DNA from: Tubiluchus corallicola
Taxonomy: Eukaryota > Animalia > Priapulida
Direction of reading: 5' to 3'
NCBI GenBank assembly: GCA_030141605.1
Contig: JAQGDQ010000302.1
Coordinates: 1 to 64,000, forward strand
DNA length: 64,000 bases
The notes below the pieces were generated by a model. That model searched no databases, had not been told where the DNA came from, and worked only from the letters and a program-made list of their open reading frames with translations. Numbering within the stretch: position 1 is the first letter of the stretch; each line of letters starts with the position of its first letter. Shown one piece after another: positions 23,439 to 63,066 of this stretch. The translations under genes and the position numbers were made by a program.

Positions 23439-23481
<43 letters not shown>

Positions 23482-26400: not shown

Positions 26401-28447
26401 ACGGTTTTTCACTTGATAGTGATGTGTAACGATAATCGCGGAAAAGTGGCACTGAACCACCGCAAATTGATAACAAGTTTTTCTATAAAGTGGCCCACAC
26501 AAAGATATTAAACAATAACAGTTACAATCGCATACGACTGCAAAATAGTAGCTCGTACTTGGCAAAATAGCCTGTTGCTCTCTGCATAATTCTTCTACCT
26601 GTGCGTTTTACTGGAGCATAGTTAGGCAATATGACACTCGTTCTATGAAAAGCGGCCAAGTTATTGTTATAGAAAAAAGTAAGTGCTATCGTGTGTTCCC
26701 TAATTCATGTGTTGTGTAGCAGTTCATTCTTTTGGTGTTCTTTCAGTTTCTTACCTTACCTTAAAGACCCTCTTTACTTAATAAATAAATGAGAAGCCCC
26801 ATTTTGAGCCTCTACGAGCACTAGAACTTCCACAACATTGACTTCTTGTAATCCTTGACTTCTTTATGGAAGCAGCCCGGTAGAACAAATTGCCACCATC
26901 TTAGCCTCTTGGTTCGGACCGTTTCTGTCAATTAAGTGGCATTTCTAAGACCCTGTTAGTGCAAAAGGAAAGCTACAAAAGGAAAATTCTCAGCAGTCAA
27001 TAAACTTATACATATTTTGACACCGTTTTTACTTTTTAGCCTTGGACTTTTTCCAATGATTAAGTGCCACTTTTGCAATGATTTTTAAATGTTGGTGTGG
27101 AATGGAAAACCACGAATAGAATTTTGGGTGTTGTTTTCTTTTCGGAATAATTACCTGCAGTTGACATTGAAGAGGACAATGACATCAGTTTGGTGGTGAA
27201 CACCACGACTTTAATTAGCCAGTAATCCAATTCTGGATACGGGACAGCTCTATTAGGCCCGTGTCACACAAAGCTGGGCATGGTTAGTAATGTATAAGCC
27301 GTAAGGAGCAAAAGTCACCTTACGAAAAACGAACGTATGGTAACCAATGGTTCCCCTCCCTCAGATAACTCATCTTTTGCCTTCCTCGGTTTGCCATCAG
27401 CCATACGCCACGGTAGGCTCCTCACAAGCGGCTCATAAGGCGCCTCATTGCGAAATGAATTTGGCCATTAATCTCATTTGCCATAAGGTCTTTTGGATCG
27501 TTGCTAACACGGAAATTAGCATGTTTCTGGCTTTTACAGTACACATTTCTTTAATATCATTTCATAACAGAACGGTCTCATAAACATTAAAAATAATTTT
27601 TAAGCATGACATTTTACTAGCAATATAATGTGATACGTGCAACGCCACAGAGTAAGGAGCATACCACGGATTGTGACGTACGCTTATGGAAGATGGAAGA
27701 CGCCTTATGGTTTACGGATTACGGATTATGGCTTGCTCTTTACTCCTTCTCTGTGTGACACGGGCCTTAAGACGAAATTGCCAAATGATACGGACCTTTG
27801 AATTAAGTAAAGTGCATGGATTCTTGGACCATTACTGACTCACTAATCTGTTAGTGCCTAAATATTTTACATATCAGTGAGATAATTTTGCAATATCAAG
27901 CACCGACTTTCGTTATCTGATTATTTCAAATCAGCTACTTTTGCTAATAATTTCACGGTATATCAATTATCATGCTGATTTGTAAATCCTGCTGGATCAG
28001 GTAGCTCCTTTATACAGTAGATGAGTCGGGCAAACAATTTACTGTTGGCATATTGTAAATAAGAATGGAATGGCTCAATTTTAGACAGCCATCGTACAAA
28101 GTCAGAGTTGGACGCCGAAGAACACATTTTATATATAAATATTATATAACGCTACAATAGTTAAAAATATGATGATACTAATTTATATTCCCAGAGTTAG
28201 GCAGCTCCATAATAATCCTCAAAGGGAACAAATACTTACATAAGATGAGTGCTGAAATTACGACCAGAAAAAACACGTCACCATTGGTTTTAAGCGTTTC
28301 AACGCTGTGCCATAACTTTACCACGTCCACTTCTGATGTATTCTGAATAACCTCCTCTGGGCTCTCCGTATAATTCGGCATATAAGCAAACATGGTGTTG
28401 ATCCTATCCGCCACACTAGAATCATTTAATACTGAGAGCAACACCAT
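6467..28447 (-). CDS. amt: Ammonium transporter (Amt/Mep family), multi-exon. Core exons: 28240-28447, 23063-23152, 21920-22147, 18670-18758, 17122-17256, 15787-15897, 14961-15083, 13875-14016, 13074-13168, 11826-12090, 6467-6702 (1722 nt, 573 aa without the cassette exons)
   Basis: All introns are GT..AG and phases join in frame. Translation gives Amt motifs [74 protein letters not shown] and [12 protein letters not shown]. The last exon (6467-6702) is supported by its acceptor and phase only. Confidence 0.95.
7541..7609 (-). CDS. amt: Candidate 69-nt phase-1/phase-1 cassette exon B of Amt ([24 protein letters not shown])
   Basis: Flanked by ..acaatAG and GTATGT, open in the Amt frame, same length as copy A. 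Confidence 0.65.
9985..10156. repeat. (CT)n microsatellite (paralogous tract at about 7010-7085)
   Basis: Directly visible. Confidence 0.95.
10454..10522 (-). CDS. amt: Candidate 69-nt phase-1/phase-1 cassette exon A of Amt ([24 protein letters not shown])
   Basis: Flanked by ..ttggtAG and GTATGT, open in the Amt frame, and paralogous to 7541-7609. Confidence 0.65.
16020..16225. repeat. (GGT/GGC/AGT)n trinucleotide low-complexity tract in an Amt intron
   Basis: Directly visible; it accounts for the poly-Pro and poly-Val ORFs. Confidence 0.95.
16560..16830 (+). mobile_element. Possible Penelope-like retroelement 3' remnant with a hammerhead-like motif
   Basis: Decayed GIY-YIG-like tail ([16 protein letters not shown]) followed by CTGAGGA-agatt..aagtC-GAAA-ttttcagt at 16778-16828. 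Confidence 0.35.
18878..20112. repeat. Recent tandem duplication, about 615-bp unit x2 (copies start at about 18883 and 19498); copy 1 begins with a 22-bp inverted repeat
   Basis: Near-identical copies. IR ttattaagaattcatcatgctg (18878-18899) / cagcatgatgaattcttaataa (18999-19020). Confidence 0.95.
20657..21063. mobile_element. hAT-type MITE with TAGGG termini and TTCGA-rich subterminal repeats
   Basis: TIR taggggtgagcat/atgctcaccccta; 8-bp TSD gttcttaa/attcttaa (7/8). A related end occurs at about 48867-48920. Confidence 0.9.
23440..23476. repeat. (TA)n microsatellite
   Basis: Directly visible. Confidence 0.95.
25276..25380 (+). mobile_element. 5S rRNA-derived SINE-like fragment or 5S pseudogene piece
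   Basis: ttaagcaatgctgggcccgggcagtaaatggacgggtgaccg aligns by eye to the 5S internal control region (CTAAGCAGGGTCGGGCCTGGTTAGTACTTGGATGGGAGACCG). A more decayed copy lies at about 52757-52810. Confidence 0.6.
25667..25857. mobile_element. Short degenerate MITE, Harbinger-like termini
   Basis: gcgcgttcagactag / ctagtctgaacaccc inverted pair (13/15); TSD unclear. Confidence 0.5.
27256..27766. mobile_element. PIF/Harbinger-type MITE
   Basis: 15-bp perfect TIR ggcccgtgtcacaca, with a 3-bp TTA TSD on both sides. Confidence 0.9.
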
Positions 28448-29059
28448 CCTCGCAGCTCTTATACTGCGTACGACGCAACACTAAAAGTTGTACATACCTG
28501 GGTTGTGTGTGCGTCAACTTTGCCAAGTATACCGAAGTGTACCCCAGGGTCAATCATGCATGCTTCGCAAACCGTGTGCGAGTCCGGGCATTTAAGTTCG
28601 TCTTGTAGGATAAACAAGTGGAATCATTTATTAAGGGAGACGTGACAGTTTTGACTTTAAAGTTTAGCCGTAGGTCAGATGTCTGTCTGTTTGCACATTT
28701 TTTGCGTTTTCTCACCAGCAATTTCAACGTTTTTTTTCTTGGTGTGACGTGTTAAGTACCCGCTGGAGAGACCGTGCAAAGAATATTTTATTATAACATC
28801 TGAACATAAATTAATTAAAAAACACTATGTTTCAGCGTGACAGCTGGGGCTTAAAGGCCTCTCTGTAAAAGGAGGTTCGCTTCAACAAAATCGCGCCCTC
28901 TTGCAACTATGACGAATACATGAATCATTATTATAATAGTGACGAAATTTTACTTTTAATATTGACTATGATGACCATTACAGTGATAACTAGGAATGTT
29001 TAGATTAGGTTAGATTAGATTAGATTAGTTAGATCATGTTTATTTAGCCTGATAAAGAT

Positions 29060-37277: not shown

Positions 37278-39344
37278 CTACACACCACACACAAGAAAAC
37301 CATCACAGAAAGTACACACATCATTAACTAATGGATACCAGGCATCTCTCTGGTTGGGATTAATTGCCAAAGCACCACACAGTGAACATTTGCGTTGAGA
37401 ACTAAATTCTAGTTGTCCTGTCTGAAGTAAAGTCTGGCAACAACGGGCCATTTTATGCCCATTTGAACAATTTGATGTGGTTAGATTCTGCAGCGTTACT
37501 TCTTCATGGCACACTGCACAAGTGTCCCAAGTGGCGTTGCGTGGATCATCAGGAAAATGCAGCCCTCGAATATCAAAAACAGATTGGGCGACACTTTTGT
37601 CTGAACATTCAGGATTGTACTGCAGCCACCACGTCGCAAGTAACAAAAAAGAAACTGCGAAACAAGAATTTGAAGCCAATCTACTTTCCAAAGCTTTCTC
37701 AGATACTAACAGTTGGAAACGACGACAAATGAGCTCGCCATCGATGTTCGCAATCTTAAATCGAAGACGGTCTTCCGATTCCGTGCCTGCAGCTAGTGCT
37801 GCTTGTACGCTTAATAAATAGTGAACTAGCTTGAGTATGAATGGAGAAGCTTGTTTGAGATCAATGTCGCAAAGTTCCAGCAAGACACCAGGTAATGCAA
37901 CACCAACATTCAAAGAGATTCGTATGTATTCCAGAATATCGAGAAGATTGGTTAGTCTGCTATTACTTTTGCCTAGCAGAATATCTGACGCAGCATCTAG
38001 ATTTGGAGCTAAAGTAGCAATATGGACATTCAGTGGTTCCCTTAGGAGCAAATGATCATATGGACCTGCCGGGCTATCAGCAAACACCATAAATGCACCA
38101 TTAGGAGAAACAGCAAGGCCATGTGATGCCATATTTGGTTTTACATCTAAGTCAACTCCAGATAACTCAATCATCAACTCCTCACTTTCGTCAAAACTGG
38201 GATATATTTGCTGACAGATTCCTTCGCCAGATAAAGCAAGAAAATACTGATTATTCACAGCCTCAATGGCAGTTACATGCAGAGTGTGACTTCCAATTAA
38301 GCAGTGTGTTGTTGCCTTTATGAGTTCATTTTTGATATCCAAAGCTACAGCAACAAAGAAGGCTTCCTTTGCAGCAACAAGAACAGCTTGGTCATGTTTA
38401 CCACATGCCATCATGCAAACTCTAGCTACTGGTACTTTATCCATCTGAGACCAGGCAGGTCCAAAACTAGCGACATTAACATAACCATCTGAATTCAAAG
38501 AAACTCTTAAAATCTGGATCAAACCCTCACTAATACCAATGGCAAGCAGTCCAGATGAAGCACCAAGTGAATGCCAAAACAAGCAAGTAGGGCGACACTG
38601 ATTCAATTCGAAGACCGAAGCGAAAGCAACATTTTCAGTCTTTGAAGAGACTTTCCAAAATACAACATGACCAGACTTCTGAGCTGTTACTAGCAGACAG
38701 CAGGGTTTTTCATTCAAAACCATCGCATGTGACCACAACATATCCACTGTAGCCAACAAATAAGTTCTCGTCTTTAGACGCCTGACTTCAACATTCTCCA
38801 TTTTAAATGTTGCCTGATTAATGTACCTGTCACCATGCTCGAAATTGTTTTCAGACATCTTTTCATAAAAAAGTTGAGAAATTTCGACAATATTTCTCCA
38901 GTTTTTCCCCTCCCCTCGACTGTGCAAACACAATCTGTGGTCCATAGTAAGAGAAGACAGAATACACCGACCAATAGGATCCACTCCTTCGGGAGACCAT
39001 GCTACCATCTTGTAAGCTTTGTAATGATGCTGTGTTGTTATGTCGGGGCTCAGGGTTCGGTCTAGTGAAAAGCCAATGAATGAACTACGGTTTGTATCCC
39101 GCAGCTTCTGCAACTTCTCTTTTGATATACCAACGTCAAACCTGCGTACAGCTGTTGGTCTAGGAATTCTAGCTTTGTGCCAGCTGATGTTGCCGTTCTG
39201 ATCAGACGGCGTGGAGCACAAGCTCATCACGTAAACACACTCATCTGTACATAATGCAACTTCGTTATGTGGAGACCACGATACAGCTGGACTATGGCAA
39301 ACACTTTCAGGAAAAGAAAAAGTTGCAACGATTTTAGTGGCCAT
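37278..39344 (-). CDS. GTF3C4: General transcription factor IIIC subunit 4 (TFIIIC90-like), 688 aa, intronless
   Basis: Long ORF with WD40-like N-terminus, the motif WSPEGVDPIGRCILSSLTMDHRL recognised from GTF3C4, and a C-terminal zf-TFIIIC-like Cys pattern (CAVC..CSNGH..RCCQT..CSLC..CTFCD). Confidence 0.9.
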   Translation of the reverse strand: MATKIVATFSFPESVCHSPAVSWSPHNEVALCTDECVYVMSLCSTPSDQNGNISWHKARIPRPTAVRRFDVGISKEKLQKLRDTNRSSFIGFSLDRTLSPDITTQHHYKAYKMVAWSPEGVDPIGRCILSSLTMDHRLCLHSRGEGKNWRNIVEISQLFYEKMSENNFEHGDRYINQATFKMENVEVRRLKTRTYLLATVDMLWSHAMVLNEKPCCLLVTAQKSGHVVFWKVSSKTENVAFASVFELNQCRPTCLFWHSLGASSGLLAIGISEGLIQILRVSLNSDGYVNVASFGPAWSQMDKVPVARVCMMACGKHDQAVLVAAKEAFFVAVALDIKNELIKATTHCLIGSHTLHVTAIEAVNNQYFLALSGEGICQQIYPSFDESEELMIELSGVDLDVKPNMASHGLAVSPNGAFMVFADSPAGPYDHLLLREPLNVHIATLAPNLDAASDILLGKSNSRLTNLLDILEYIRISLNVGVALPGVLLELCDIDLKQASPFILKLVHYLLSVQAALAAGTESEDRLRFKIANIDGELICRRFQLLVSEKALESRLASNSCFAVSFLLLATWWLQYNPECSDKSVAQSVFDIRGLHFPDDPRNATWDTCAVCHEEVTLQNLTTSNCSNGHKMARCCQTLLQTGQLEFSSQRKCSLCGALAINPNQRDAWYPLVNDVCTFCDGFLVCGV

Positions 39345-39446
39345 TCTACAGACCTTTAACTTAAGTATTTATTGTTAAGGCCACCCAGGTGAGAAGGTAG
39401 TCATGCTGTCAAACCCACACTAATGACGAACTGATGATCAGAATGT

Positions 39447-39635
39447 CTACTCCACTGGTTTTATTGTTACAAACCTGGATAAGATGAATGCCACCATAAA
39501 ACTCATTGCGGTGAAAACTGCTGCAGTTATGTAGAAAGTTTGTTCATCAAAAACGTCAGTGAAAGCCGGCAAGTGTTGTGAGATCTTGTTTAAAAGCTGA
39601 ATGTGTGCTGATTTCACGTGCTCTGAGTCTTCCAT
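39447..39635 (-). CDS. Small single-pass membrane protein, 62 aa (MEDSEHVK...LPAFTDVFDEQTFYITAAVFTAMSFMVAFILSRFVTIKPVE)
   Basis: ATG in good Kozak context (aacATGg) 82 nt into an exon that begins at a strong acceptor (tttcctctttttgtactttctAG, 39718). One clear hydrophobic helix. From memory it resembles uncharacterised invertebrate microproteins; not verified. Confidence 0.75.
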   Translation of the reverse strand: MEDSEHVKSAHIQLLNKISQHLPAFTDVFDEQTFYITAAVFTAMSFMVAFILSRFVTIKPVE

Positions 39636-39834
39636 GTTTAGCAAAATAATACCAGTAGTTCACTACCAAAAAATTATATAGAAACGTTTAGAACAGAGTC
39701 CTTATTCTGCATCAAATCTAGAAAGTACAAAAAGAGGAAACGAGTTAGTAGCAATATAACAACCAAGAGCTCTAACATTTAATGTTGAATCATACAGTTA
39801 TGGCAGAAAATCAAACCCTTGTCTTTTTGATTAA

Positions 39835-40396
39835 AGGAAAACGGGATGATTTTTCAAATGTTGCTCTGTTTTGAAGTGCGGTAAAAAGTATACATTTTAA
39901 CACCTGCATTAATGTAACAGTGTTTCTGATAATTAAATAATAACTTAAAAAAATTTAATTAAAAGCCAGCGAGCACAGCAGAACAGAGCACAAACAGCAC
40001 AAACATTCCACGAGCATGATGCACGTGTTTGCGACAGCAAAAATTGAAATTGCTACTGTACTACAAACAAAGACTGGGCAAATTTGTTTAAAAAAACTTG
40101 AATTTTAAGTTTACTGCTGTTTCACCACCATAATAGTGCACTACATCAGAAACAAACCGAGAAGGACAGTGCCTCTTTTTTGTGAAACACAGTTCTGGGA
40201 TGCATGCACTGCATCAATCTAACCTGCGAATGGTGGAATGCAAGGAACAGGATGCAAATGTGCACGTAAATGTCCATGTGATAATTCTTTCATGCAAGTC
40301 ATCCTTAAAAAAACAATTTAATTCTCCTTCAACAATTTATACATTAGTCTATAGTTTAGACTGTAGCTATAGTTTAAAATTGGGTCCTGTTTTCCT
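39835..40396. mobile_element. Kolobok-type non-autonomous DNA transposon
   Basis: TTAA|AGGAAAACGGGA .. TCCTGTTTTCCT|TTAA. An orphan related end occurs at about 43138-43174. Confidence 0.7.
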
Positions 40397-40499
40397 TTAA
40401 ATCACAAAAATATTAACTATGCTCTCTGCATTTTTAGGGCCTAATGTTATAAAACTTACATAGTGTGTTTACAGGTAAAGCGTAAGAATAATTTGCCTG

Positions 40500-41343
40500 T
40501 GGTAATTTGTTCGTCTGTTTAGTAGGCGTTATGACGCTTACACTTTCATGATATTTAGAAATCATACAGATTAGCTGCAATGCATACTATGTGAATTTCA
40601 TAGCACAATTAAACAAACATTTAGATCATCATTTTCAATTTGCATATCTTTAGTGTTTGTGACAGTATTTCTCGGATTTGTGACCTGGTATTAAGGTAGT
40701 TCAATAAAACTGATTGAATTTTTTATGTACATGCCTACACCGCCTGCATTTGCAGCTGAATTATGAATCTAATAAACTGATATCCTGGCAAATGAGAAAG
40801 AAAAAGATGCCCTATTTTGATTCTTGTTTCACTTACTGCTATAATTTCAGGTGGGTGGTGAAAATGCAATAAAACATCTAACATGCTGCTGTAATTTTTT
40901 TGAAGCCTACTTACATTGAAATGGACCATCGCAAAATCTTTGTTCGTGTTTGTGTAGCTTTTTTGACTAGCTAAAGATGATAATTTAATAAATTTACTAT
41001 CAGGATAATGAATATAGTTGTCTGGATCATTGTTATTGGTACAGAAATTTGTTATACTACAAATATCACGTAAGGATTGAAAATTTGATAAACTTGATAA
41101 TGAGACATCAAGTGTAAAAAAATTGTATACATCTTTGTCTTCTTCATATTGAAACGGTAGTATCGAGTTCAAACATAACATACAGTAATATGCATCATTT
41201 GAATTTGCGTAAGTATTAAATTCATTCAAATTTAATGCGGTACATCTAAAATGCACCCAGTCTTGACACACATCACATTGTGTACATAGCTGATTAGTCT
41301 TGCAAGGTTTGGTACATTGCTTGCAAGGATACTGAGCAGGCAT
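40500..41343 (-). mobile_element. LINE fragment encoding a PHD finger plus the N-terminus of an APE endonuclease (frameshifted)
   Basis: CKQC..QCDVCQDWVHFRC..YYCMLC (PHD), then MVHFNVSRLQKN..PEIIAVSETRI..LPGYQF (APE motifs I-II); decays afterwards. Confidence 0.85.
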
Positions 41344-42657
41344 AATTAGTAAAATCAGTTACAAGTAAACAGTTTCGTTAGCTATTCTATAGGCTGCAGC
41401 CTAGAGACCTCAGTCATGAAGGGCCCTGCTAAAAGATTTGCAAATATTTTTTTTTTTGGAAAATGAGTATAACACTTTAACATTTTTCATCTCTGAATAA
41501 TTCATTTAATTTAAAATAAAATTTCCTCTTTAAAAAAGGTGGCCTGGGAGTATGAAAACTCAATTTAAAAAATGACCCAGTCGTGGCCCCTTATTCGAGA
41601 GAAAGTACCAGCAAACTCCATAAAAGGCCCTTTTTGAGGCCCAGACATATTTGTTTGATTTTGAAAAGTTTGAGATAAAGGGTCCCTGTATGAAGTCCTT
41701 TATTTTAAATAAGGCCATTAAGGGACTTCAGTTTGAGTGCTGCGAGCTAGATGATGGCTTAGGCTGAGGGTGCCCCATAATTTAATTAGCCTAGGGGCAC
41801 CAAAAGCCTTGGAGCTAAGGCTACTATTTTTCTGCGTGCTATGATAGTTTCAGTCCTGAGTAAACTTCGCAGATATTTACATTTCTTCAAAGAAGTAGCA
41901 CAGCCACCACCGCTGTATTGTTCTGTATTATTTATCTTCAAATTGAAATTTCTCTCACGGTTGGTTGCATCGAACGTAAATGTATCTTAATTTAAAGTTT
42001 TAATGTCTACGCACTAACTTTTTTGTAGCGTGCTGTCTCAGTTTTTTTTGCCACATTAAAATAAAATTTCTCAGGTTCAAGGCATAATCAATACCAGTAA
42101 TCTTTCTGAAAAGGTCACTGCTGCTTTCTTCTGTTTTGGGCGCAATTGCGGCGTGCCGTGCTTTGGAACTCAGCAGTGAGCAGCCAACAGTTCGAGCTTT
42201 TTTGCCCGGGAAGACCCGCAGTGTAGCAGGGCAAACTTAAAGCAAAGCAGTATGATTTTTCATATCCCACTCCATTTTCAAATATGGTAAAAACATTTTA
42301 ACACCTATAATAATGCTAAACTGTTTAGGATAATAAAAAATAATAGGTTAAAAACTTGATGGCTGGTGAAAGCTGTTAGTGACACAAATATTACACCAGC
42401 GTGCAATACTACTGCACAACATTCAGTGTGATACATAAAAACTCAGCAAATTATAAGTTTAAAAATCTAAATTTCATGAGCTCTCAAACACATTCTATAT
42501 CACAACTAAACTGAGAGGTGCAATGCCCGTTTTTAAACAATGTATTTCCGAAATGCAGGCACTGTCTCCATCTAAGTATGGCGAAATGCAGGTAACTGAG
42601 TGTGTAATTAAACTTCTATGCTAATAATTCTTTCACGTAAACCACACTTAGTAATTA

Positions 42658-43096
42658 CCGTATTTTCCCGTGTATAAGAGACCCTTTTTTGCTCAGAATT
42701 TTCACTTTAAAAATAGGGGGTCTCTTATACATGGGAGTAAGTCTTTTCAATAAGATGCATAAATTGTGACACTAATGATTTTAAAGAAATAAGTGCTCTA
42801 CAACTGTTTTGCGTGTCGCGTTCGACTATGAAGCGGTTGTAAGCAATACAAGCATCGTGACACAGGCATTATCTCCTCGTTTTCTCTTTTCCTGTTACAG
42901 GTTTGCAGGTACGCACTTTAATATATAACAGTACTCTTTTTCTACAACACATTAACTGGTTTTATTTTGTTTTCAGTACCGCACTGAGTTGAAAAAAGTT
43001 GTACTCTACCCTCTACCCCCTTTTTTCCAGAATTTTTGCCTAAAAATTGAAGGGGTCTCTTATATACAAGGGTCTCTTATACACGGGAAAATACGG
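42658..43096. mobile_element. Tc1/mariner-type MITE
   Basis: 29-bp perfect TIR ccgtattttcccgtgtataagagaccctt flanked by TA; subterminal ggggtctcttata repeats. Confidence 0.92.
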
Positions 43097-43628
43097 TATG
43101 TTCTTCCAAAATTAAATTTTTTGCACATGCGATTCTTTAGCTATAGTATAAAATTGGGTCCTGCTCCCCTTTAATGATTTGTATTAGGATCCAGTAAGCC
43201 ATTTGTCATTATTACAGTCATTACTATTGTTTTATTATTATGTGCTTAGCGCTTCTTATTGTTACTAGTCATTGCTGATTCACGTTTCAGTCATTATTGT
43301 GTCCCAAGCCATAAAATTTAAACTTTCATGAAATATTATTGTATCCAAAATGCTGAAAAGGCTTTGAGTAGGCCTATTGGAGTCTTAATTTTGAATTAAG
43401 ATAAGAAATTAGGATGCATTAAACTGGTTTCCAAAGGCCAGGATAAAAGTTAGACATATAACATGGTACATCCACTGCTTATATGCAGATTAATGCAAAA
43501 AATACAGTGCTAGACACCTGACTTTACAACGTGTGAGATGGAAACCAGACGGACTGACTACTGAGACTAGTACACAAGTCGCAAAGTAAAACAAACATAA
43601 AGCAATCAGGTAATTATTTTCCCAAAAT

Positions 43629-43634
43629 TTTATT
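43629..43634 (-). promoter_or_regulatory. Candidate AATAAA polyadenylation signal for a DJ-1-only mRNA
   Basis: tttatt on the + strand about 370 nt downstream of the DJ-1 stop codon. Confidence 0.5.
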
Positions 43635-44005
43635 TAACACCGGTCAAAAGTAACTGCAAGTTAACAATCCTCAACATAATCTAGGTAGTGCAAATGCCAG
43701 TTTTTAAACAGATTTGACTTTGACAATGTAAAATGGCTACATAATACACAGCTGAGTGTTTTTCAAATGGTTAAATTAATGTAGACTCAGAAAATGCTGT
43801 TAGCTTTTAATAATTCCATTATCACTACTCAATGATCCAACAATTACAGAGAAAACACTGATATTTGGTAATCGCATCACAAACTAGCAACTTTGCACAC
43901 AAACTCAAAGTCTAACAAAAAATGAAATCAACAACTATCAACATGATTTTTAAAGTAGGGCAACTACTTACCCTACTTCAAAATAAAGAGTAACAAACGA
44001 GATTA

Positions 44006-47000
44006 TTATAACTTTAAGAGCATAGGTGGTACAATTGAATCACGCTTTTCTTTCCCCTGTAATGCCTCTACCAATGCAAGTCCAAACTCAAATGCTGTCC
44101 CGGGTCCTCTGCTAGTGATAAGAGTTCCGTCTCGCACAACTCTGTCTTCGCTGTATTTGTAACTATCTATGTGATGAAGAAAATCTATAAGTGCCAGGTA
44201 ACAAAAAATGCCGCGGTGAAAGGAATTGTTATGGAAAGTATTAGTAAACAGGCAAAGCTCAAAATTACTTGATAAATGTTTTATTAGAATTGTTGCAATG
44301 ATGTTCATTTTATGTTGGCATTGTTTTTGCAACACAATTCCATGTTGTACTTGTAATAACTGTAAAAGTACTTGTGTAATTTGAATTGTGTAAATCCATT
44401 TTGGATAAAACTAATTTAAACTTGAAAAAATTGGAAAACAGTTTTCAAAAAATTAAGTCTGTTTGAGGGGATTTCTTGGTTTACTATAGTAGGTTCTCAT
44501 GACGACATTTTTTTCCACAGTAATAAATAAACAGTCTAAAATGATACTGACTTTATGATATAAAACTTTACCAATAACTGCAATGTTAGAAAAGGCTTAG
44601 AAAATTCTCAGTGGAGGTGGTGAGGAAGAGTTGGTACATTTTGCTCAATCACAATAAACAACTCGTATTGATGTGTTATGTTATGTGCTGCAGTAGGTGG
44701 TAGAGAGGTTCCACTATGCCAAATGCAAAAGATTCTTGATAAGAAAGCAGCCATATCATTAACTAAGTCACATAATCTAAATCTAATATGTTAATTGCAA
44801 GTTTTACTAAAGTAATGAATGTATTAAATTTTTACCTGAAAGTTGATTCTTTACCGAGGGATGACTTGTTAGCATTTTTCCAGTGCAAATCTTATGGCTG
44901 AGCAAAGCAGTCGGTGCAGCACAGATTGCGCCAATAAAACGTCCGGATTTCTGTTGTTCTTCAAGTAAAAGTTTTACTTTTGCTGACTGAAACGTAAAAA
45001 TTTAGATTGTCCTATAAGAAAGTATTGCCATATGCTAAAAATTCAGCAGCTGCTGCTGAAGGATTGTTTAAGTAATGCACATATTAAAAACGAAAGATTT
45101 CATGACAACAAAAAAATCTGCTAAACAGAATGGGAAAGAATGTTATGTGTAATATATTAATACCACTAATGTATGTAGTTCCAGCCCACTGAATGAGTTT
45201 CAAAACTCTACCAGACTACCTAGATGATATTATGGATGAGAAAAGTTGTTATAACACATTTAAGACCTTGTGCTGCACTGCACTGCAATCTCTATTGAAC
45301 ACCCATAATTATACGTCACACACGGGCAAGGGCAGTACAATAAGATGTAATATATATTATGCGTCAAATTTTTCTTATATCTTGCACTAGCATGCATCCT
45401 ACTGCCCACTGCTTACTAACAACACTGATCATCCAAACATAAACATTCTCACCCCGGCAAGATTCTGAGCACCCTTCAATCCACCTGGAAGTATGACAGC
45501 TTCATAGCTAGTAGTGCTGGTGGCATCGTCAAGGCTTTTATCAGGTTTTACCACCACATTTCTGCTGCACCTGACTGGCTCAGGTCCATCCAATCCAGCA
45601 ATAGTGACATCAACCTGTAAAGTACAAATTGCCCGAAAATGTTACTTATCATGTACGTAGAATCATAATCCCTTTTAGACTTTTAGTGTCAATAGTCCAC
45701 ATGCCCGAGTTATTAGCAAAATGTAAAAAACTGTAAATGCCAAAACAAGAGCTAGAATGCTAGTACTCTGTGTACATTATTGCAATAAAATACAAACTTC
45801 TTACAGATACATTAACATAAAATTTTCTGGCGCTATTACACTTTTGCATCTTCTAGTTTTTTCGAGCTATTATTTGTTTCTAGGCTTGTAAGCCATAAAG
45901 CAGAACAATAGACCTACTATAAGACAATTTCAGGATGTCAGCGACTGTGTTTACTGCACACAAACTAACACAGCAGTGACATTACGATGAAGCATGGACC
46001 TTAATTCGAATTTTCAGTTCTATTATATCTATTTTGTTTTGCGTCCACAGTTGATTGCGTTCTACATATAGGCAAAGCATGTATAATATATTGCCTTTCT
46101 ATAGGCCTGCAAACCTGTTTTCCACGTAGGTTTTATTTGTCAAATGTGTTAAAAAATAAATAGTTTTTTACATAAAAATATTTCATTAATATTATTATGC
46201 ACCATCACCAATTCATCACATCGTCATCATCACCAATATCATCTTGATCATCATTATCATCGGCATCATCATCTTCAGTCACCGTCGTTAGTGCCAAGCA
46301 TAGAGTGCAAAAATGGTCGCAGTTAGCATAGCCATTGTCATTGGAAGTGTCACAGTTTGCAGACAGCGAGGCAGATGTCCCTGGATGCAGAAGAGGGTGG
46401 AGATGTTGCCCAAAAGCGTGGTGGGATAATGTTTTCAGTTACGTAAGTATAATTCTGTATATTTGCTTATCCCGGGTAAATACAGTATTTCTTGCGTTGT
46501 TTAGTTAACTATGTTTATTGTGTTATTTTAATTGATGCATTTTGTTGTGCATTTATGCTTTGTTTTTTTTGTTTGGGTGTTTTGTGTGAATGGAGCTTTA
46601 AGTCGTGTCATCAGTTGCACTAAACGAACTCTTGAGCACATATGTATAATTATATGTTAGTGTGCGTGTGTATGTTTGTGTGTATGTACGTGCATGTGTG
46701 CACATATGTGCATGCATATGTGTGTGTGTGAGTGTGTATCAGTCTTAAAAACCAAAGTGGATAGCAGCCGTGTACTTCCAGGTTCCATTTTCAGCTTTGC
46801 TTATAGCTGGCTTCAGTAAGATGTTATTATACTGCTTTAAGGTCACCTCACCAATGTGTATGAGGATCATGATGACAACGATGGAAATGATGATGGTGAC
46901 AATGGCGGTGGTGATGATGATGATAAAGATGGTAATATATTAATGGTGGTGACGAAAAGGATGGTGATGATGTATGCAATAATAACATTGATGACAATGA

Positions 47001-47638
47001 GAATGATGCTGACATGATGTTCTTTAGCTAAGGTGATGATGACACTGTGTTGAAGATAATGATGTTGCTGATAAAATTAAACAATTTTTAATTTTTCATC
47101 GCCATTAAAATTAATGTCTTGCTTATATGCTTAACTAGTTGGAATGAATATTTTACGTAATGCTTGTAAGACAATAACTTTATAATTTTAATATACAAAA
47201 TAAGAATGTTTTAAAAACTGTAGCAGTAGCAACTTAAATTAATATGCGTATAAATGGTGTACTCCAGCAATACAGTATTTATAGGCCTACTATCAATTGT
47301 ATTCTTGAGCCGTTTTGCAAATTTGTTTTCACTTTGTTGCTAAATTAGCTTCTCTTCAAAAGACTAATTCCGAATTTTCTCTTTCTACTTCTTGAATTCT
47401 AGTCAATTCCGAAAGTGAAATAGCGCCAACTTTTTTGATCACTGGAATAACTAATGACATCAAATATTAACGTAACCTCAGCTCTTCGTAATACATCTGC
47501 AGTGATGACTGCCTCCATTTCTTCTGCGCCTTCAGCTAAAATTAAAAGTGCCTTCGGAGAAGCTGTGCTCATCTTTCTGAATATTAAGCTTAAGAATAGA
47601 AACTGCTGCGAAGCAAATAAACGAATTCTGCTACTCAT
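44006..47638 (-). CDS. PARK7: DJ-1/PARK7 (DJ-1/PfpI family). Exons 47477-47572 (or from the upstream in-frame ATG at 47638), 45453-45614, 44836-44986, 44006-44166; 189 aa from ATG 47572, 211 aa from ATG 47638
   Basis: GT..AG introns join in frame. Motifs GAEEME (E18 equivalent), LPGG, AICAAP (C106 equivalent), TSHP (H126 equivalent) and [11 protein letters not shown] are present. Confidence 0.96.
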
Positions 47639-49090
47639 AAATTTGCAAAACTATTCACTAAATTTGTTTTCACACACTGCTACAAGCATACAATGTAGTC
47701 ATACACTTCTACAGTATTAACCATGTCTGTAGCTATAACTGTTGCGAGCAGAGTAGGACACTAGCCGAAGAAGGACAATTGGCGTAGGGCTGCCCAAGTA
47801 CGCCAATTGAGACAGAGACACAAGAATTGTGTCGTTAACCGTACTGGCAGTGTTAGCCGTACACGTTGAATAATTTATTATACATCTGATAAAATAAAAG
47901 AATCTTATTCTGAGCTAGTACAATGGTCAATATTAAATTCGGTATTGACATTAATCTTTTTGAAGTGAAATAAGCCCGCTTTTAGGTGATTCCAACACTT
48001 GTGTTTCTTTTTCTATTTTGTCTTGCTTCACAGAAAGGTGATCCGTTTCACTACCTCTTGGAGAAATAATTGTCTTTTACTAAGACAATATTTTACTTCT
48101 ACTAAGTAAACGGGATAGTGAGCTACGTGCCCTACATAGTTTCTCTTTGTAAAGCATTAAATACTTAGATGAATGTTATGGTGATATTAATTGAGCTAAT
48201 AATAATGATGATATTATTGCAAAACATGCGTTAACTTTGAAAATTGTCAAGGTCTATCCATCATTATTATGAAGTTACTCTTTTCTAAAACAAATTTAGT
48301 TTTATGTCTTATTATGTCATAATTCTCGACAGAAATCTGCAGTGCCCTACTTTGGTTGCCCTTATACAACACTGCTTTTGCGCAAACTTAGCACATGCGC
48401 ATTAGCGGAAGTGTACTACTTCGGCTAGTGTCGTACTCTGCGCCCTATATAGTTATAAAACGTGAGAGCACAGTTTCCAGTTTTCATCGATCATCTTTCA
48501 CCACCTCTGAGAACCGAAAGGAATTTTATTTAAATCGGATTTGTTATAAATATTCAATAGGAATTGCACAATACCAAACGAGAAAATCTATGTGATCACT
48601 GCCTGTGGACTGAGGGAGCACAACAATATTGTACCAATGTTGGAACAATATTTTTGCAAATATTGGGACTATATAGAAATGTGGGCTTGCCAAAACATTG
48701 TACCAATATTTTTTAACAATATGTGTAAACTTTGTGTACCAAACGAAAATATTTGTTCTACCGATGTTGCACAAAAATATCAATATTGCATCAACGCAGT
48801 GACAATATTTTCTGAACATATTTTTGTCAAGATCATGACCATATGGCGACAATATTGTGTGATCAGTAGGGATGAGCATCGAATTCGAACAAGTTTTTTT
48901 AGTTCGAATTCGATTCAACCTAAAATTATAGATTTGAATAATTCACCACTCCAACCATATATGTTTTTTATCATAAAATGTTTGCAACATCATGCAAATA
49001 GTACAATTTCGTGTGGAAAATTTTTGAAAATTTTTCAAAGCTTTTGTGAATTTTTTTTAGTAAACTAATAATGGTTTTACTGCGAAACAA

Positions 49091-54700: not shown

Positions 54701-57700
54701 TTTTAGATCAATTTTAAATTATCAAATTGCTGATTATCACTAATTGCATTTGATTTTTCTAACTACGCAGACGCCTCAAGTTGCTGATGAACATGCTGAG
54801 ATCATGTGGAGTGACACTGATGGAGGTTTTGTGCTGCAAGATCTTGGTTCTTATCATGGAACTTACATCAACGACTGCCGAGTGGAAAATGCTTCTGTAA
54901 GATTAGCTTCGGGTGACTGTGTTCAATTTGGGAAGGATGGTGAAGTGTTTAGTTTTAGCACAGAAACTGATACTGAGTTGGTAGGTATATTTTAAGTGAT
55001 TAGTAAATGCTTGTTTTTTACATATCAGAATGGTATGGCTAATGCTTATTGGCATTGTTCTTTTTGTTGTTCTATGTAGACAGTTTGTTTTGAAGTCACC
55101 ATCCATGGATCATGAGTTCTGGGGTTTCACATTGCATGCTGCATTCTGTAATTTTATAGCTCACTTGAGCTTGTCCGCTACTCAATGGTTGCTCCTAATT
55201 AACATAAATGATTGTCGCAGAACTGGAACCTAGCTTAGAGAGAGTATCTTCTAAGATGAGATACTGAACTCATAGAGGTGTTTAAGCGAAATTCAGATAT
55301 GTTGCATCTTTTGTCAACAAGAGAATTATCTTTGGACAGTCTGACTGATGATATTTACCATCTATAACTGCCAGATTTACCACTGCTTAAACTTGGTTAC
55401 TATGCACAAACTGTAATCACTGAACTGTTTCCTCTGCTATTGATAAGTCTGAATTCTTTATGTTAACTGTGAGCATTTTTGATATTTGTACTTGTGTATT
55501 AACTACTGAAAATGAATTATTATCACAAACAACAGAACTGTGTTGATTTGAAGGAAAGAAGGACCATTCTTAAATCATGGTGTAAAATAATCTATTGTAT
55601 AAAATATTGAAAGTGCAAATATTTGTTTCTTAAGGATGACTTACTTAAAAGAATTATAGCCTCAAAGTGGGCTTAATTTTGCATTTATACAATTAATTTT
55701 TCGCTGTTGTAGACATTTTAAGATTTCCTAGTTAGATGGCAACAATATCTGAATCTCGAAAACTCATTGCACAAAAATAGTCACTGCAGCTGATCTTTCA
55801 CATTCCACATTTGAAAGGTACATGGCACATAAAATTCACATTCGTGAAACCACAGAGAAGAACTTAGAATTTATTACGTGTGAATCGTAGTCAAAGCTGT
55901 ACAGTAACACTCATTGCTAACTATAGGTGTTAAAATGTACACTTTTTACCATATTTCAAAATGGGGTAAGATCTAAAAAAGTCGTCATGTTTTATTTTAA
56001 TTTTCGTCTTTTACATAGCGCCTTTTTCAAAATACTCCATCAAAATTGAAAATTTCTTTCTGTTTTACATTTCATGTTTGCAGAGAGGTCATCAGATTAA
56101 TAGTGCACCTATTTATAACTTTAGTTTTTGTTTCTGGCTAAATGACATTCGCTACTCTATATTAATTATTGGCTATTTACTACACCTGTATTATTAAGAA
56201 AAGACAGAACAATATGGCATAGACAAACCATTAGCAAACTAAAATATATGTTGTCTTCATAAAATTGTGCCATGCTGTCATCCAAGTGAGAAGAATAATG
56301 CATACAAATGACATTTCGGTTTATTTTCATAACTCTGGGACAAAGGCAGATTAGTGACTGTGAAGGTTTGTGAGAATGTGTACTGTAACCTTGTTTGGTT
56401 ATGTTAACTGACTGCGATGTAATCCCCAGTTTTTTGGAGTCCTCATCTTGTAAGTTAATATTTAAACTTTGTAAAGAACTTGGTTGTATTTGTGTACACT
56501 CGTTTGTTTCTCTCGAGGTATGTGCATTATACTCATGATACTTTGGAATGAATGCTATTGTTGGTTAATGATTAATTACATCTGGAGTGTTTAGAAATAG
56601 GAAAGACTTGGCATAGGCCTACTTTCAACAATAAAATTTTCAATAAATTGATATGTGGGGCTCCTTCAAACTCTCCCATGCAGCTGTGCAACTCCAATAA
56701 ATATTTTTTATTTAGCAAGATTGGGCATCAGTTTCTGCACGTCTGTAAGTAGACAGATGCATTGGAATTTAAGCATTGTGTTATTGTATGTATGAGAGCT
56801 GAACATTTCCATATCTTACTCTTTTCTTTTTAGCTACCAGTAGCGAGATATCGTAACTCTTATCAGCCGCTGACTTTTCTTGATGCTGACGGTGGTGTTG
56901 CATCAGCAGCTGACTCAGCGCTACCTCAGCTTCGCATCTCCAACAGCAGACCTGAGTCTAGTAGTAGCTTGACATCTCTGGAAAGGGTTGCTAATAATGG
57001 GCCAATCATGCAGCAGCCAGCTAGAGCAAATCTTAGCTCACCATCAGTGGGAAGACATACGATTAGCAGCATCAATAAATCAATACAGCTGAAGCAAGCA
57101 TGGACACCGCAGTTACTTTGTCCAAAACTTGTAAGTTATATGCAGTTATGTCATATGTATATGTACACATACTGTAACTACTTTTTTGTAGTATTATTGT
57201 TTAATCTGCAAATTAAGAGAGGCATACTTAAAGTTTGAGCAAAATACGCTGAAACACAATATGGCGCAGCAAAAGATGCTCAAATGCAAAGTACATGGCT
57301 AAGTAAATAGTAAAAATTTAGCCTAAAGTTTTATAATACATATTCTAATATGTGAATACAAATTTAGAAGTTCAAAAAGGAGTTGCGTAATTTTCTTAAT
57401 TACTTATATCATAGCGGCAATTGGTTGGCTGAAATGCGAAATACATGTAGCACTAAGACCAGAAAAAAATATACGAATATTTGGCAGACACAATAACACA
57501 AAGTAGACATTAACTCACACATTAAGCTTTGCTACGTCAGTGTCTACACACACACCTTATACCTGCCCTAAACTGCTGTTACCTGGTGCCACCATTTTTG
57601 AAATTCAGAAAAAATCCCCACGTATGCCCTTATGCAGTTTGTGATATGCAGTTCATTTGTGCCATTAGCTACTAAACAGTAGCATTTAAATATTAAATGG

Positions 57701-60700: not shown

Positions 60701-63066
60701 ACAGTTGCGCAACCGCAAGTTTGATCCCATGTTGTAACTTTTAGTAGCACATGCTTGAGCGCTATAAGTATCTTACTTTATCTTTGAGTATTTTAAGAAT
60801 CTTTGAGTATAAGACATGCATGATCTCTAGCATAGTTTATTTAAATTTTTCTATCTGCTTTCAATTTATTTTTTCGCCAGCTTGGTGCCCCCTGAGCCTT
60901 GTGCCCTAAGCATGTACTTAGCCTGCTTATGAGTTGATCTGGCCCTGGCTATAAGACGGTAGAAGACTGCAGTAAGTTTCTTTCATTACAGCAACACATT
61001 ATGAGCACAGCAGGGGTAAGTGGAAACCGTTGCGTTCCAGCAGCGTTCCGTCAGAAGCCGATATTCTCCGCAGAGATGCCCATCTTGCACAGTTACAAGA
61101 TGAGATTTGGTCTCTTCAAGAGATTTTAGGTGACAATGGAATGCAGGGTCCCGGGTACATGGATTTATTCAACCGGCTTGGAGCATTGGAGGATGAGGTG
61201 CATAAAGCTCGATCTGATGTTAGTAAACTAGCAGAGCAGGTACTGTATATATTATTCAATCATAATGATTGCAGTAAACAGGTAGATGGTACAAGATGCT
61301 AAACTGACATTCATTTATTGCTAACACACATATTACTAAAGTTCTAATTGCAAACTGCATATTTTTGAAGAATATCCCAAAACCTTTTTTTTGTTTACCA
61401 TATATACGTGTGTACCTTATGTGCAACTTGATGCAAAGTCTTAAAATGTACATCATTTTATATATTACCTGTGTACAAGTCGACCATAAAATATTAAGAT
61501 CTTCCAGAGTAAATGATGTCAACAATGATATCATCCTCTGCGTAGTTGTGTTTTATATACGCGTGTATGCTGGTAATCGATATTTTGACAATAAAACACG
61601 CGTATACAAGGCCAGGTAAAACTTCCCGCAGAAGCCGACAGGCAGCAGCACCTGCACAACATTGGCGATTTCCATGTTCTGATTGAGTGCTCCGTCGCTA
61701 GTTTATTTGCCGGTAATATGTAAATTTTAACTTAATTTCACATACATTAAAATAAATTGCAGTAATATTTGTTAAATTTGTGAAGTAATGTCAAGATGCG
61801 AACATTCTCTGATGTGAAGTATCACAGTATGAGTGTCCATTCAGTTCAGTGTATAATGAAGGATTATTTCTCTACGTATTCGTATTGTAGACGATTCTTT
61901 AGCGATATCTCCCAAAAACATATCGTAAGTATGTCGACCCCAAAAATTTCACCTTAAAATCGCCTCCCAAAAATTCGACTTGTACATGCAGTAAATGTGA
62001 CAATCGTTGTATCTAAATTAGTAATGCTTTTATCAAGATCATTTATAAAGTCGAACCTAGACTGATCTGAAATAGAAACTGAATTTTATTACTTTACAAA
62101 AATTGCAAAAGTTTGTCATGGAATTGCTTGACCATGACATGAGCATGATTTTTGTTGACTCGGTTTTGGCTAAATGGCTAAGGCTGGTGTTTGCCAGCTC
62201 CCCAGAAGACTGAATGAATTATCAGAAAACATTGATTCTCCGTTTGCTTCACGGGGTAGTTCAAAATTGTGGTCAGTAAAATTCTGTTTAGACAGAGCGA
62301 TGTTTTGAGTAACAGTATGAAATACTGGCAAGTTCTAGTAAATTTATCAAGTACCACTATTAAGAAGCATTTTTCCAGTTTTCGTATACTTCCCTAATGT
62401 TTTTTCACTATTACAACAAAGATGCAGTTTTGACAGGCTTATTTGCTAAACTGCAACCTACTCTCATTCTCATGGATTTTGGTGGATTTTTGTTGCTATG
62501 ATATGCAATAAATCAAAAACCTAAACACAGCTTTGTGCATCCTGAAACTAAGGAATTGAGCCTGGTCAGTTTCTTGTAAAACGGCTGATTCTTCTACTTT
62601 TGGACCATGCTGTTTTCAGAGTAGGATAAATGATTTTTGGTGCTAGTTACTGATTAATCAAGATGTTGAGGCTAAAGTCCTTCGTTAAACCGTTCAACTT
62701 TCCAAAAAAGTTTTCCGTTTAGAAAATTCAGATTAGTGCTATACTTGTGTGTTTTAGTTATGTGTTTTTTTTGCGCTCTTGATTACATTTTTGCTCGCTA
62801 CTTTTTTACTATTTAATTGTTGTCTATATCAGGTTGTTAATCAGAGGAATAGTAGGATAAACGACATCACCCAGCAAACGCAGCAGATGAAGATTGAAGT
62901 TGAAAAGCTTTCTACGGAACGAAACAATCTTGCACAACTTACTGGGGAGCTTCAATTAGATGTGACCAATAAAAACAAGCGTATAAGTCACATGACCGAA
63001 GAGTTAGAAAATGTTAATCTTAAGCTTGCAGAGCAAGAAGGTGACATCATTGACTTGAACTCTAGG
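51738..63066 (+). CDS. FHAD1: Forkhead-associated domain-containing protein 1-like, 5' portion (continues beyond the window). Exons 51738-51836, 54771-54980, 56834-57130, 59132-59300, 60992-61239, 62833-63066
   Basis: N-terminal FHA domain (MKGLL..TTIGKSEECDLV|..HAEI..FVLQDLGSYHGTYINDC..VRLASGDCVQFG), then an S/P-rich linker and coiled-coil exons. Splice phases 0,0,0,1,0 are mutually compatible. Confidence 0.85.
61455..62000. mobile_element. Degenerate MITE in an FHAD1 intron
   Basis: Inverted ends tgtgtacaagtcga / tcgacttgtaca and an internal gtcgacccc repeat; TSD not resolved. Confidence 0.5.

What the first reader, a model, noticed from the sequence alone, without database searches (positions are those of the whole stretch)
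37278..47638. Candidate tricistronic / operon-like unit: DJ-1 -> 62-aa microprotein -> GTF3C4
Seen: three same-strand ORFs. The small ORF and the intronless GTF3C4 lie 102 nt apart, downstream of one strong splice acceptor (39718). The 4 kb upstream is mostly TE remnants (Kolobok MITE, LINE, Tc1 MITE) with no recognisable first exon. A perfect GTAAGT donor lies 34 nt after the DJ-1 stop (43971). Joining them gives DJ-1, a 116-nt spacer, the small ORF, a 102-nt spacer and GTF3C4. Established: a junction less than about 50 nt after a stop escapes exon-junction-dependent NMD. Inference: one promoter drives an oxidative-stress protein, a membrane microprotein and a Pol III factor, and the intronic AATAAA (43629) competes with splicing to give a DJ-1-only mRNA.
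Basis: partly seen in the sequence, partly recalled or inferred. Interest (0 to 1): 0.85.

Follow-up and report, generated by a model that had tools for sequence, protein, structure and literature searches.

The report
Partner-swapping microprotein ahead of GTF3C4
In this invertebrate (likely a priapulid worm) a conserved 62-residue protein gene, predicted to cross a membrane once, sits 102 bases in front of the gene for an RNA polymerase III factor and likely shares its messenger RNA; the same small gene lies next to different housekeeping genes in other animals, and the proposed splice link to the upstream DJ-1 gene remains possible but was not seen.

Summary
The anatomy is as described: spliced DJ-1, AGG|GTAAGT 34 nt after its stop, a strong acceptor with a TACTAAC branch point at 39718, a 62-aa ORF, 102 nt, intronless GTF3C4. 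The small ORF is a real gene family (372 clusters; insects, tardigrade, nematode, mussel), most likely that of Drosophila CG33155, which is dicistronic behind mRpL53. In 63 fetched loci it never neighbours DJ-1 or GTF3C4. It follows mRpL53 (10 loci) or PRP38 (1), or precedes ABCB9 (4) or an F-box gene (1); a Trichinella gene model fuses it to DDX55. A relative's spliced contig carries DJ-1 through the proposed donor into its own 3' UTR, with seven deleted bases around that donor; another runs from the spacer into GTF3C4. Best reading: a microprotein-GTF3C4 bicistron with its own unseen first exon (0.45). The tricistronic splice stays a live rival (0.28): the donor is unlikely by chance (about 1.5%), and two other loci show stop, donor, intron, microprotein. 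Polycistronic microprotein genes are a known kind; partner swapping by this family is the new part. The scan noted similar pairs in other genomes, not this family.

The parts
47477..47572 (-). DJ-1 coding exon 1 (an in-frame ATG at 47638 would add 22 residues)
   Evidence: joint 45611-47474 (cut +3) in run X2
45453..45614 (-). DJ-1 coding exon 2
   Evidence: spliced in X2 contig
44836..44986 (-). DJ-1 coding exon 3
   Evidence: spliced in X2 contig
44006..44166 (-). DJ-1 coding exon 4 to the stop codon
   Evidence: PF01965 2.2e-08
43966..43974 (-). Candidate donor AGG|GTAAGT, 34 nt after the DJ-1 stop; read through, and hit by deletions, in the relative's contig
   Evidence: 8 of 9 consensus; P about 0.015; table 4
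43806..43811 (-). ATTAAA, likely DJ-1 poly(A) signal (the relative's contig ends near the equivalent of 43796)
   Evidence: (129 loose letters before 43925); inference
43629..43634 (-).
42237..43174 (.). Repeat element with TTAA ends, holding a nested element 42656-43098 with perfect 31-nt inverted ends
   Evidence: high depth in DNA-like run X1
41831..42236 (-). CpG-richer stretch (o/e 0.88, 15 CpG), candidate own promoter and non-coding first exon; donor-like sites at 42018, 41958, 41880
   Evidence: X1 contig 41832-42252 at depth 24.4, like other unique pieces; function inferred only
40735..41343 (-). LINE-like fragment (PHD finger, then endonuclease-like start)
   Evidence: PHD, E 0.0084, below cut-off; endonuclease motif recognised from memory
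39831..40400 (.). MITE-like element with TTAA-flanked inverted ends; related copies at 42237 and near 55.5-56.0 kb
39718..39750 (-). Branch point TACTAAC, pyrimidine tract and acceptor AG of the exon that holds the small ORF
39636..39717 (-). 82-nt leader with a 12-codon uORF (39712-39674, weak start context)
39447..39635 (-). 62-aa microprotein of a conserved family without Pfam model (CG33155-like); N-terminal helix, PxFxDxFDEExFY motif, one predicted membrane helix (residues about 31-55)
39345..39446 (-). 102-nt spacer: possible second acceptor at 39420, 9-codon uORF 39404-39375, AATAAA at 39373
   Evidence: X2 contig 39199-39423
37278..39344 (-). GTF3C4 (TFIIIC90), 688 aa, no intron in the coding region
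   Evidence: 47% to Priapulus caudatus XP_014677632.1

Best explanation
The 62-residue gene and GTF3C4 lie 102 bases apart in one uninterrupted stretch and are likely read from one two-gene mRNA that would start at an unseen non-coding first exon in the 4-kb gap, while DJ-1 likely ends at its own poly(A) site as a separate gene. Shown: the three ORFs, the strong acceptor, the conserved protein family, and in a relative one spliced contig for DJ-1 with its own 3' UTR and one from the spacer into GTF3C4. Inferred: a promoter in the gap (best candidate 41831-42236) splices to 39717; ribosomes make the microprotein from its strong start (A at -3, G at +4) and a minority re-start on GTF3C4 after the 62-codon ORF and a 9-codon uORF, which would keep TFIIIC90 low. 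The microprotein is likely the Drosophila CG33155 family, a single-pass membrane peptide that would need only a housekeeping promoter and so has changed partner and position between animal lineages; no shared pathway with GTF3C4 or DJ-1 is implied.
For: Family: 63 clusters at 50% identity, 372 at 90% with named insects, a tardigrade and a mussel. Spacer plus GTF3C4 start on one contig of run X2, 27 differences and 2 gaps in 225 nt, about as alike as pure coding pieces (27 in 274, 39 in 289), reading across AATAAA 39373. DJ-1 contig of 977 nt with three introns removed runs colinear past the donor; its loose 3' letters align at 43891-43919 (20 of 29; 13 of 6394 windows score as high) and not to the small-ORF leader (scores 16-17 against 31). 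Seven deletions at 43962-43976 in that contig. The family as front gene elsewhere: F-box gene 98 nt behind it in L014, ABCB9-like gene 204 nt behind it in L038 and further off in L035, L046, L057; DDX55 fused in a Trichinella model. Short predicted 5' introns without an upstream ORF in L010 and L034 (read by eye). Fly CG33155 also has a promoter of its own (PMC4528330 File S1).
Against: No first exon or start site was seen. The best donor in the gap is the one behind DJ-1 (8 of 9; the only other 8 of 9 lies in the LINE fragment). CpG stays low from DJ-1 through the gap to GTF3C4 (unique gap sequence o/e 0.49, against 0.92-0.97 upstream of DJ-1 and 0.82 below 36 kb), as one transcription unit would; the bump at 41831-42236 is no higher than a window inside GTF3C4 itself (0.92 at 37501-37900). 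The spacer contig does not reach the small ORF and has 17 unaligned letters beyond 39423, which could be a splice to the acceptor at 39420. Six AUGs precede the GTF3C4 start within the exon. A contig across two genes does not show a single transcript, and the RNA comes from a relative about 10% diverged, one run.
Confidence: 0.45

Rival explanations
1. One reading: DJ-1 transcripts either end at a poly(A) site in the 3' UTR or splice from the donor at 43971 to 39717, giving a DJ-1, microprotein, GTF3C4 mRNA. DJ-1 would have taken the place that mRpL53 holds in arthropods, and the 4-kb gap would be an intron swollen by transposons.
For: Donor 8 of 9, 34 nt after the stop, P about 0.015; an acceptor with TACTAAC needs an upstream donor and this is the best in the gap; unbroken CpG depletion from 46 to 35 kb. 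The family follows another gene's stop by 12-164 nt in 11 of 37 locus clusters; in L003 (mRpL53) and L011 (PRP38) a 7-of-9 donor lies 26 and 43 nt after that stop, with an acceptor 10 and 5 nt before the small ORF (predicted, not seen spliced). FlyBase lists seven tricistronic sets (PMC4528330, passages).
Against: The relative's DJ-1 contig reads through the donor, and its deletions take in donor positions +1, +4, +6; if the letters between the gaps match, the site falls to about 6 of 9 (worked by hand), a level met by chance in 50 nt with P 0.36. An essential splice site should be kept at 10% divergence. GTF3C4 would be third, behind 19 AUGs, and 2474 nt would follow the DJ-1 stop. DJ-1 is next to the family in 0 of 63 other loci.
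Confidence: 0.28
2. One upstream exon, two acceptors: splicing to 39717 gives a microprotein mRNA (ending near AATAAA 39373 or running on), splicing to 39419 skips the small ORF and gives a GTF3C4 mRNA. The two proteins would come mainly from separate mRNAs of one promoter.
For: AG at 39420 has 13 pyrimidines in 20, like DJ-1's real acceptors (12-14), with a CTGAT branch-like motif about 20 nt upstream. The X2 contig stops aligning at 39423 with 17 letters left over. It avoids re-initiation behind a strong start codon.
Against: The 17 letters were not shown and may be plain divergence; contigs of this run are short pieces. AATAAA 39373 would lie in the GTF3C4 leader. AGs with 13 of 20 pyrimidines are not rare.
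Confidence: 0.15
3. The upstream partner lies further off: an exon beyond DJ-1 (for example mRpL53 outside the window, with DJ-1 nested in its intron as ATG13 is in L003), or an earlier DJ-1 donor, splices to 39717.
For: L003 shows a same-strand gene nested between mRpL53 exons upstream of the small ORF. mRpL53 is the commonest partner among ecdysozoan-like loci.
Against: No mRpL53 in the window (best profile hit E 5.7); the 16 kb upstream of DJ-1 hold a CpG-rich stretch and then what reads as an opposite-strand gene. Joining DJ-1 donors 1-3 to 39717 gives truncated products of 33, 87 and 150 aa.
Confidence: 0.07
4. A nematode-style operon: the acceptor at 39718 takes a trans-spliced leader, and DJ-1, the small gene and GTF3C4 are cut from one precursor.
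For: An acceptor with no seen donor partner; in Trichinella the family abuts DDX55; a 102-nt gap with AATAAA before GTF3C4.
Against: The AG next to the GTF3C4 start is weak (9 of 20 pyrimidines) and a contig crosses it unspliced. The 4.3-kb DJ-1 gap is long for an operon (recalled norm about 100 nt). Two searches gave no paper on trans-splicing in priapulids (listings only).
Confidence: 0.05

Closest known systems
Drosophila mRpL53/CG33155 dicistronic locus (FlyBase; PMC4528330 File S1 rows seen; PMC4185420 passage; PMC4359375 Table 3)
   Same: CG33155 is 60 aa, translated, 8 nt behind the mRpL53 stop, and has an alternative promoter. The family found here is 56-70 aa in insects and follows mRpL53 by 12-145 nt in 10 loci; two cluster members are even labelled L53 by their source.
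   Different: Here mRpL53 is absent, the small gene is the front cistron before GTF3C4 (or the middle one if DJ-1 splices in), and it sits behind a strong acceptor. The fly protein itself was not in hand, so identity with CG33155 rests on size and gene order.
Drosophila sloth1-sloth2 bicistron (PMC9681215, passages)
   Same: Single-pass microproteins on a shared mRNA; the downstream ORF is set by how well the upstream start is used; linkage kept in some lineages and lost in others.
   Different: There the upstream start is weak and leaky scanning was shown, and the partners work together. Here the upstream start context is strong, the partner is a 688-aa nuclear factor, and partners differ by lineage.
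FlyBase polycistronic gene class (PMC4528330, passages): 159 dicistronic pairs, seven tricistronic sets, 2.5% of genes, small proteins over-represented
   Same: Gap of 102 nt (116 nt for the DJ-1 join) is inside the -34 to 319 nt range; unrelated partners are the rule; 5' monocistronic forms usually end at an upstream poly(A) site and 3' forms use a downstream promoter.
   Different: No cDNA spans the ORFs here, and the organism is likely a priapulid, for which my searches found no such report.
Spliced-leader operons of nematodes and tunicates (recalled)
   Same: Same-strand housekeeping genes, an acceptor without a seen donor, a gap near 100 nt.
   Different: No leader seen, no strong acceptor before GTF3C4, and a long repeat-filled gap behind DJ-1.

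Membership tests
CG33155-like microprotein family (no Pfam model) | Sequence homology to the about 60-aa insect proteins | tested here: met
   46-54% identity to Eurosta, Phlebotomus, Anthonomus, Papilio proteins; nearly invariant P23, F25, F29, D30, E31, F34, Y35
CG33155-like microprotein family (no Pfam model) | One hydrophobic helix near the C-terminus | tested here: met
   mean hydropathy 2.1 over residues 34-52; helix 31-55, pLDDT 87-97; prediction only
CG33155-like microprotein family (no Pfam model) | Direct match to the Drosophila melanogaster CG33155 sequence | not tested
   the fly sequence was not among the named hits; the link rests on length (60 aa) and on mRpL53 linkage
mRpL53/CG33155 dicistron | mRpL53 directly upstream on the same strand | tested here: not met
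   no mRpL53 in the window (best E 5.7); met in 10 of 63 other loci
Dicistronic mRNA (FlyBase sense), microprotein-GTF3C4 | Two non-overlapping same-strand ORFs with a short gap | tested here: met
   102 nt; reported range -34 to 319 nt
Dicistronic mRNA (FlyBase sense), microprotein-GTF3C4 | A processed mRNA that spans both ORFs | tested here: inconclusive
   one contig of a relative covers 79 of 102 spacer bases and the GTF3C4 start, not the small ORF
Dicistronic mRNA (FlyBase sense), microprotein-GTF3C4 | Both proteins made from the same mRNA | not testable with these tools
   needs ribosome profiling or reporters
Tricistronic DJ-1 unit | Splice junction 43972-39717 | tested here: inconclusive
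   not among the joints; the read-through form is present; contigs show presence, not absence
Tricistronic DJ-1 unit | Donor kept in a close relative | tested here: not met
   seven single-base deletions at 43962-43976 in the X2 contig; gap placement is the tool's, the letters were not shown
Spliced-leader operon | Common leader on 5' ends, or an SL RNA gene | tested here: inconclusive
   no Rfam match above cut-off in 35-50 kb; the 65 loose 5' letters of the DJ-1 contig are unexplained (score reached by 507 of 6394 windows); no genome held
DJ-1/PfpI family | PF01965 domain over an open spliced frame | tested here: met
   2 of 4 exons scanned
GTF3C4 / TFIIIC90 | PF12657 beta-propeller plus PF12660 zinc finger | tested here: met
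   both above curated cut-off

The most novel reading that the evidence does not exclude
An essential-looking membrane microprotein conserved across protostomes travels as a spliceable cassette that docks onto other genes' transcripts: behind mRpL53 in arthropods, behind PRP38 or ahead of ABCB9, an F-box gene or DDX55 elsewhere, and in this priapulid-like animal between DJ-1 and GTF3C4, where a choice between poly(A) and a 3'-UTR splice yields a three-protein mRNA without trans-splicing.
Probability: 0.25. Interest if true: 0.62.

Novelty: new variant of a known kind. Interest (0 to 1): 0.4.

Why it matters
Microprotein-housekeeping dicistrons are common in flies, so the locus alone is not surprising. 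What is useful is the comparison: one uncharacterised family, whose fly member is translated (PMC4359375) and whose locus carries candidate lethal insertions (PMC12974806; these also fall in the span shared with mRpL53), keeps being found hard against a different housekeeping gene, in front or behind. That argues that such shared mRNAs are about borrowing a promoter, not about linking one pathway, and it can be tested with public transcriptomes. It also marks a gene that annotation misses or fuses (Trichinella DDX55 models, L53 labels). If the DJ-1 splice is real, it would be a tricistronic mRNA in an early-branching ecdysozoan with a 688-aa essential factor in third place, a hard case for scanning models of translation.

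Tried and rejected
No genome is held for this window, so gene order in relatives, the mRpL53 locus and SL RNA genes could not be searched. Sequencing runs: no RNA holder listed; X2 came as an addition with next to none of the sampled words and is only guessed to be RNA, though its DJ-1 contig lacks three GT-AG introns. No listed X2 piece covers 39424-39717 (table 8 shows 8 rows, 22 more hidden; binned depth also suggests none), so the small ORF and the acceptor were not sampled and the missing junction is no evidence of absence. tblastn of DJ-1, GTF3C4 (two queries) and DDX55 against 63 loci: no hit. mRpL53, PRP38, GST, TRM61, F-box, ATG13 and ABCB9 queries against the window: nothing significant. 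Neighbour census limits: 39 representatives of 37 clusters were read; 145 of 228 listed ORFs plus some shorter ones went to Pfam; many contigs are 1-3 kb, so distant partners are missed; of the 37 clusters 21 showed none of the tight or recurring partners named. No Pfam family on the small-protein part of 63 homologues, no solved structure, Atlas hits to SMIM5/6 under 0.8 are leads only and were dropped; no fold search was run on a two-helix peptide. A shared promoter motif from the DJ-1 5' end is not enriched (14 matches, 10 expected). Rfam gave only microsatellite-like miRNA matches below cut-off. The protein tree has 66 columns and does not resolve the order of partner swaps; it only pairs the window with P0001 (99/91). 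Paper searches for priapulid trans-splicing or operons, GTF3C4 or mRpL53 bicistrons gave nothing on this locus (listings seen); subscription papers are not covered, file 1 of the PMC4528330 supplements was not searched, and bioRxiv supplements are closed. PMC2246290 (passages) gave only the map position of mRpL53. Earlier findings: none near this place or on this sequence.
Full report
OBSERVATION. The three ORFs lie on the minus strand as stated. DJ-1 has four coding exons that give 189 aa, with PF01965 on the two exons scanned. GTF3C4 is one 688-aa ORF with PF12657 and PF12660; its only hit among 7992 scored candidates is Priapulus caudatus XP_014677632.1 at 47%, so the animal is likely a priapulid, as earlier agents also judged. 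Distances of 34, 82, 116 and 102 nt are right. The acceptor at 39718 is unusually strong: TACTAAC at 39750, 17 pyrimidines in 20, matched by 7 of 3690 minus-strand AGs. The exon that holds the small ORF is therefore very likely spliced to something upstream. The donor behind the DJ-1 stop matches 8 of 9 consensus positions (the consensus is recalled); such a site falls within 50 nt of a given point with P about 0.015. Repeats that I could delimit fill about half of the gap.

THE SMALL ORF IS A REAL GENE. phmmer found 63 clusters at 50% identity; a profile found 372 clusters at 90%, the best 120 listed, with named flies, beetles, moths, wasps, an ant, a tardigrade and a mussel. No Pfam family covers it and no solved structure matches. 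The model has an N-terminal helix, the conserved PxFxDxFDEExFY turn and one hydrophobic helix at 31-55.

ITS NEIGHBOURS ELSEWHERE. One scan of metagenome contigs gave 63 loci in 37 clusters. None holds DJ-1 or GTF3C4. mRpL53 ends 12-145 nt before the small ORF in 10 loci. That is the known fly arrangement: FlyBase File S1 lists mRpL53 and CG33155 as dicistronic, 8 nt apart, with CG33155 also made from an alternative promoter (PMC4528330, supplement rows); CG33155 is 60 aa and translated (PMC4359375, table passage); Transib1 insertions there are the best candidates for four lethal lines, unconfirmed by crossing (PMC12974806, passages). I file the family as CG33155-like on size and gene order; the fly sequence was not compared. 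Other partners: PRP38 ends 164 nt before it in L011; an F-box/PHR ORF starts 98 nt after it in L014; an ABCB9-like gene follows it in L035, L038, L046 and L057 (204 nt in L038); a Trichinella pseudospiralis model joins it to DDX55. In L010 and L034 it seems to have a short 5' intron of its own (by eye). The other 21 clusters showed none of these partners, often on short contigs. The tree does not order the swaps.

RNA. Only two runs were offered. X1 looks like DNA of the same or a very close species. X2 is a relative about 6-14% different in coding pieces; its 977-nt contig has all three DJ-1 introns removed, runs colinear through the proposed donor to 43925 and on for 129 letters whose listed 30 align at 43891-43919 (20 of 29; 13 of 6394 windows score as high) and not to the small-ORF leader. 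So a DJ-1 RNA with its own 3' UTR of about 200 nt exists, ending near ATTAAA 43811. More telling, the contig has seven single-base deletions at 43962-43976, including donor positions +1, +4 and +6; the letters were not shown, and by hand the site would drop to about 6 of 9. A second contig covers 39199-39423, that is 79 of the 102 spacer bases and the GTF3C4 start, at 27 differences and 2 gaps in 225 nt, about as conserved as coding pieces, and reads across AATAAA 39373. It leaves 17 letters unaligned beyond 39423, three bases past a plausible second acceptor at 39420; this is unexplained.

CpG. Priapulus is predicted to methylate its DNA (PMC8821070, passages). CpG o/e is about 0.8 below 35 kb, 0.33-0.75 per kb from 35 to 47 kb, 0.92-0.97 at 47.7-50.2 kb and about 0.35 beyond. 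The low stretch covers DJ-1, the gap (unique parts 0.49) and GTF3C4 without a clear island, which mildly favours one transcription unit. The only non-repeat bump is 41831-42236 (0.88; 15 CpG), no higher than one window inside GTF3C4; it is the best but weak candidate for a separate promoter.

MECHANISM. I put 0.45 on a microprotein-GTF3C4 bicistron with its own non-coding first exon, DJ-1 separate; 0.28 on the DJ-1 splice competing with poly(A); 0.15 on two acceptors giving separate mRNAs; 0.07 on a more distant upstream exon; 0.05 on trans-splicing. These are judgements: the good donor and the CpG profile raise the DJ-1 model, the eroded donor in the relative and the load on translation lower it. 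In the joined model GTF3C4 lies behind 19 AUGs and 2474 nt follow the DJ-1 stop, so escaping junction-dependent NMD is not enough; a long-3'-UTR mode is described, though with weak transcriptome-wide signal (PMC6173133, passages). In the bicistron the small ORF's start has A at -3 and G at +4, so leaky scanning as shown for sloth1-sloth2 (PMC9681215, passages) fits less well than re-initiation after the short ORF; this is inference.

NOVELTY. Dicistronic and tricistronic mRNAs with small proteins are an established class: 159 pairs and seven triples in the fly (PMC4528330, passages). My searches found no report of this pairing, of polycistronic mRNA or trans-splicing in priapulids, or of this family's changing partners (listings). 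I rate it a new variant of a known kind, interest 0.4; the tricistronic, cassette-like reading would deserve about 0.6 and has about one chance in four.

Noticed in passing
window 47638-47573 (-): An in-frame ATG 66 nt upstream of the DJ-1 start would add 22 residues rich in Arg, Ser, Phe and Leu with no acidic residue, like a mitochondrial presequence; the relative's contig covers this stretch. No targeting predictor was run.
   Followed up: no
window 47748-48441: A 33-nt inverted repeat (88%) brackets about 700 nt of high-depth sequence right at the DJ-1 5' end; a MITE may sit on or supply the DJ-1 start site.
   Followed up: partly
window 1-64000: Sharp mosaic CpG pattern: about 0.8 below 35 kb, low at 35-47 kb, high at 47.7-50.2 kb, low again to 61 kb, as gene-body methylation would leave.
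   Followed up: partly
window 11815-28480 (-): Scattered exons that read like an ammonium transporter (Amt) gene, recognised by eye; not scanned.
   Followed up: no
window 56834-63081 (+): Exons of a coiled-coil protein gene on the plus strand, probably head to head with DJ-1 across the CpG-rich 47.7-50.2 kb stretch; not identified.
   Followed up: no
L003 764-3460 (+): A 404-codon open frame with an ATG13 domain lies on the same strand between the two mRpL53 exons, upstream of the small ORF: a nested gene inside a likely dicistronic unit.
   Followed up: partly
P0029; P0195 and P0196: Annotation trips over this family: a Trichinella DDX55 model starts with it, and two 64-aa members are labelled ribosomal protein L53.
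   Followed up: partly
P0002: The Priapulus GTF3C4 model (619 aa) starts at about residue 80 of the window's ORF, so it may be cut short at its 5' end.
   Followed up: no
window 39420-39440: The relative's contig leaves 17 letters unaligned just past a plausible second acceptor; it may mark a splice that skips the small ORF.
   Followed up: partly
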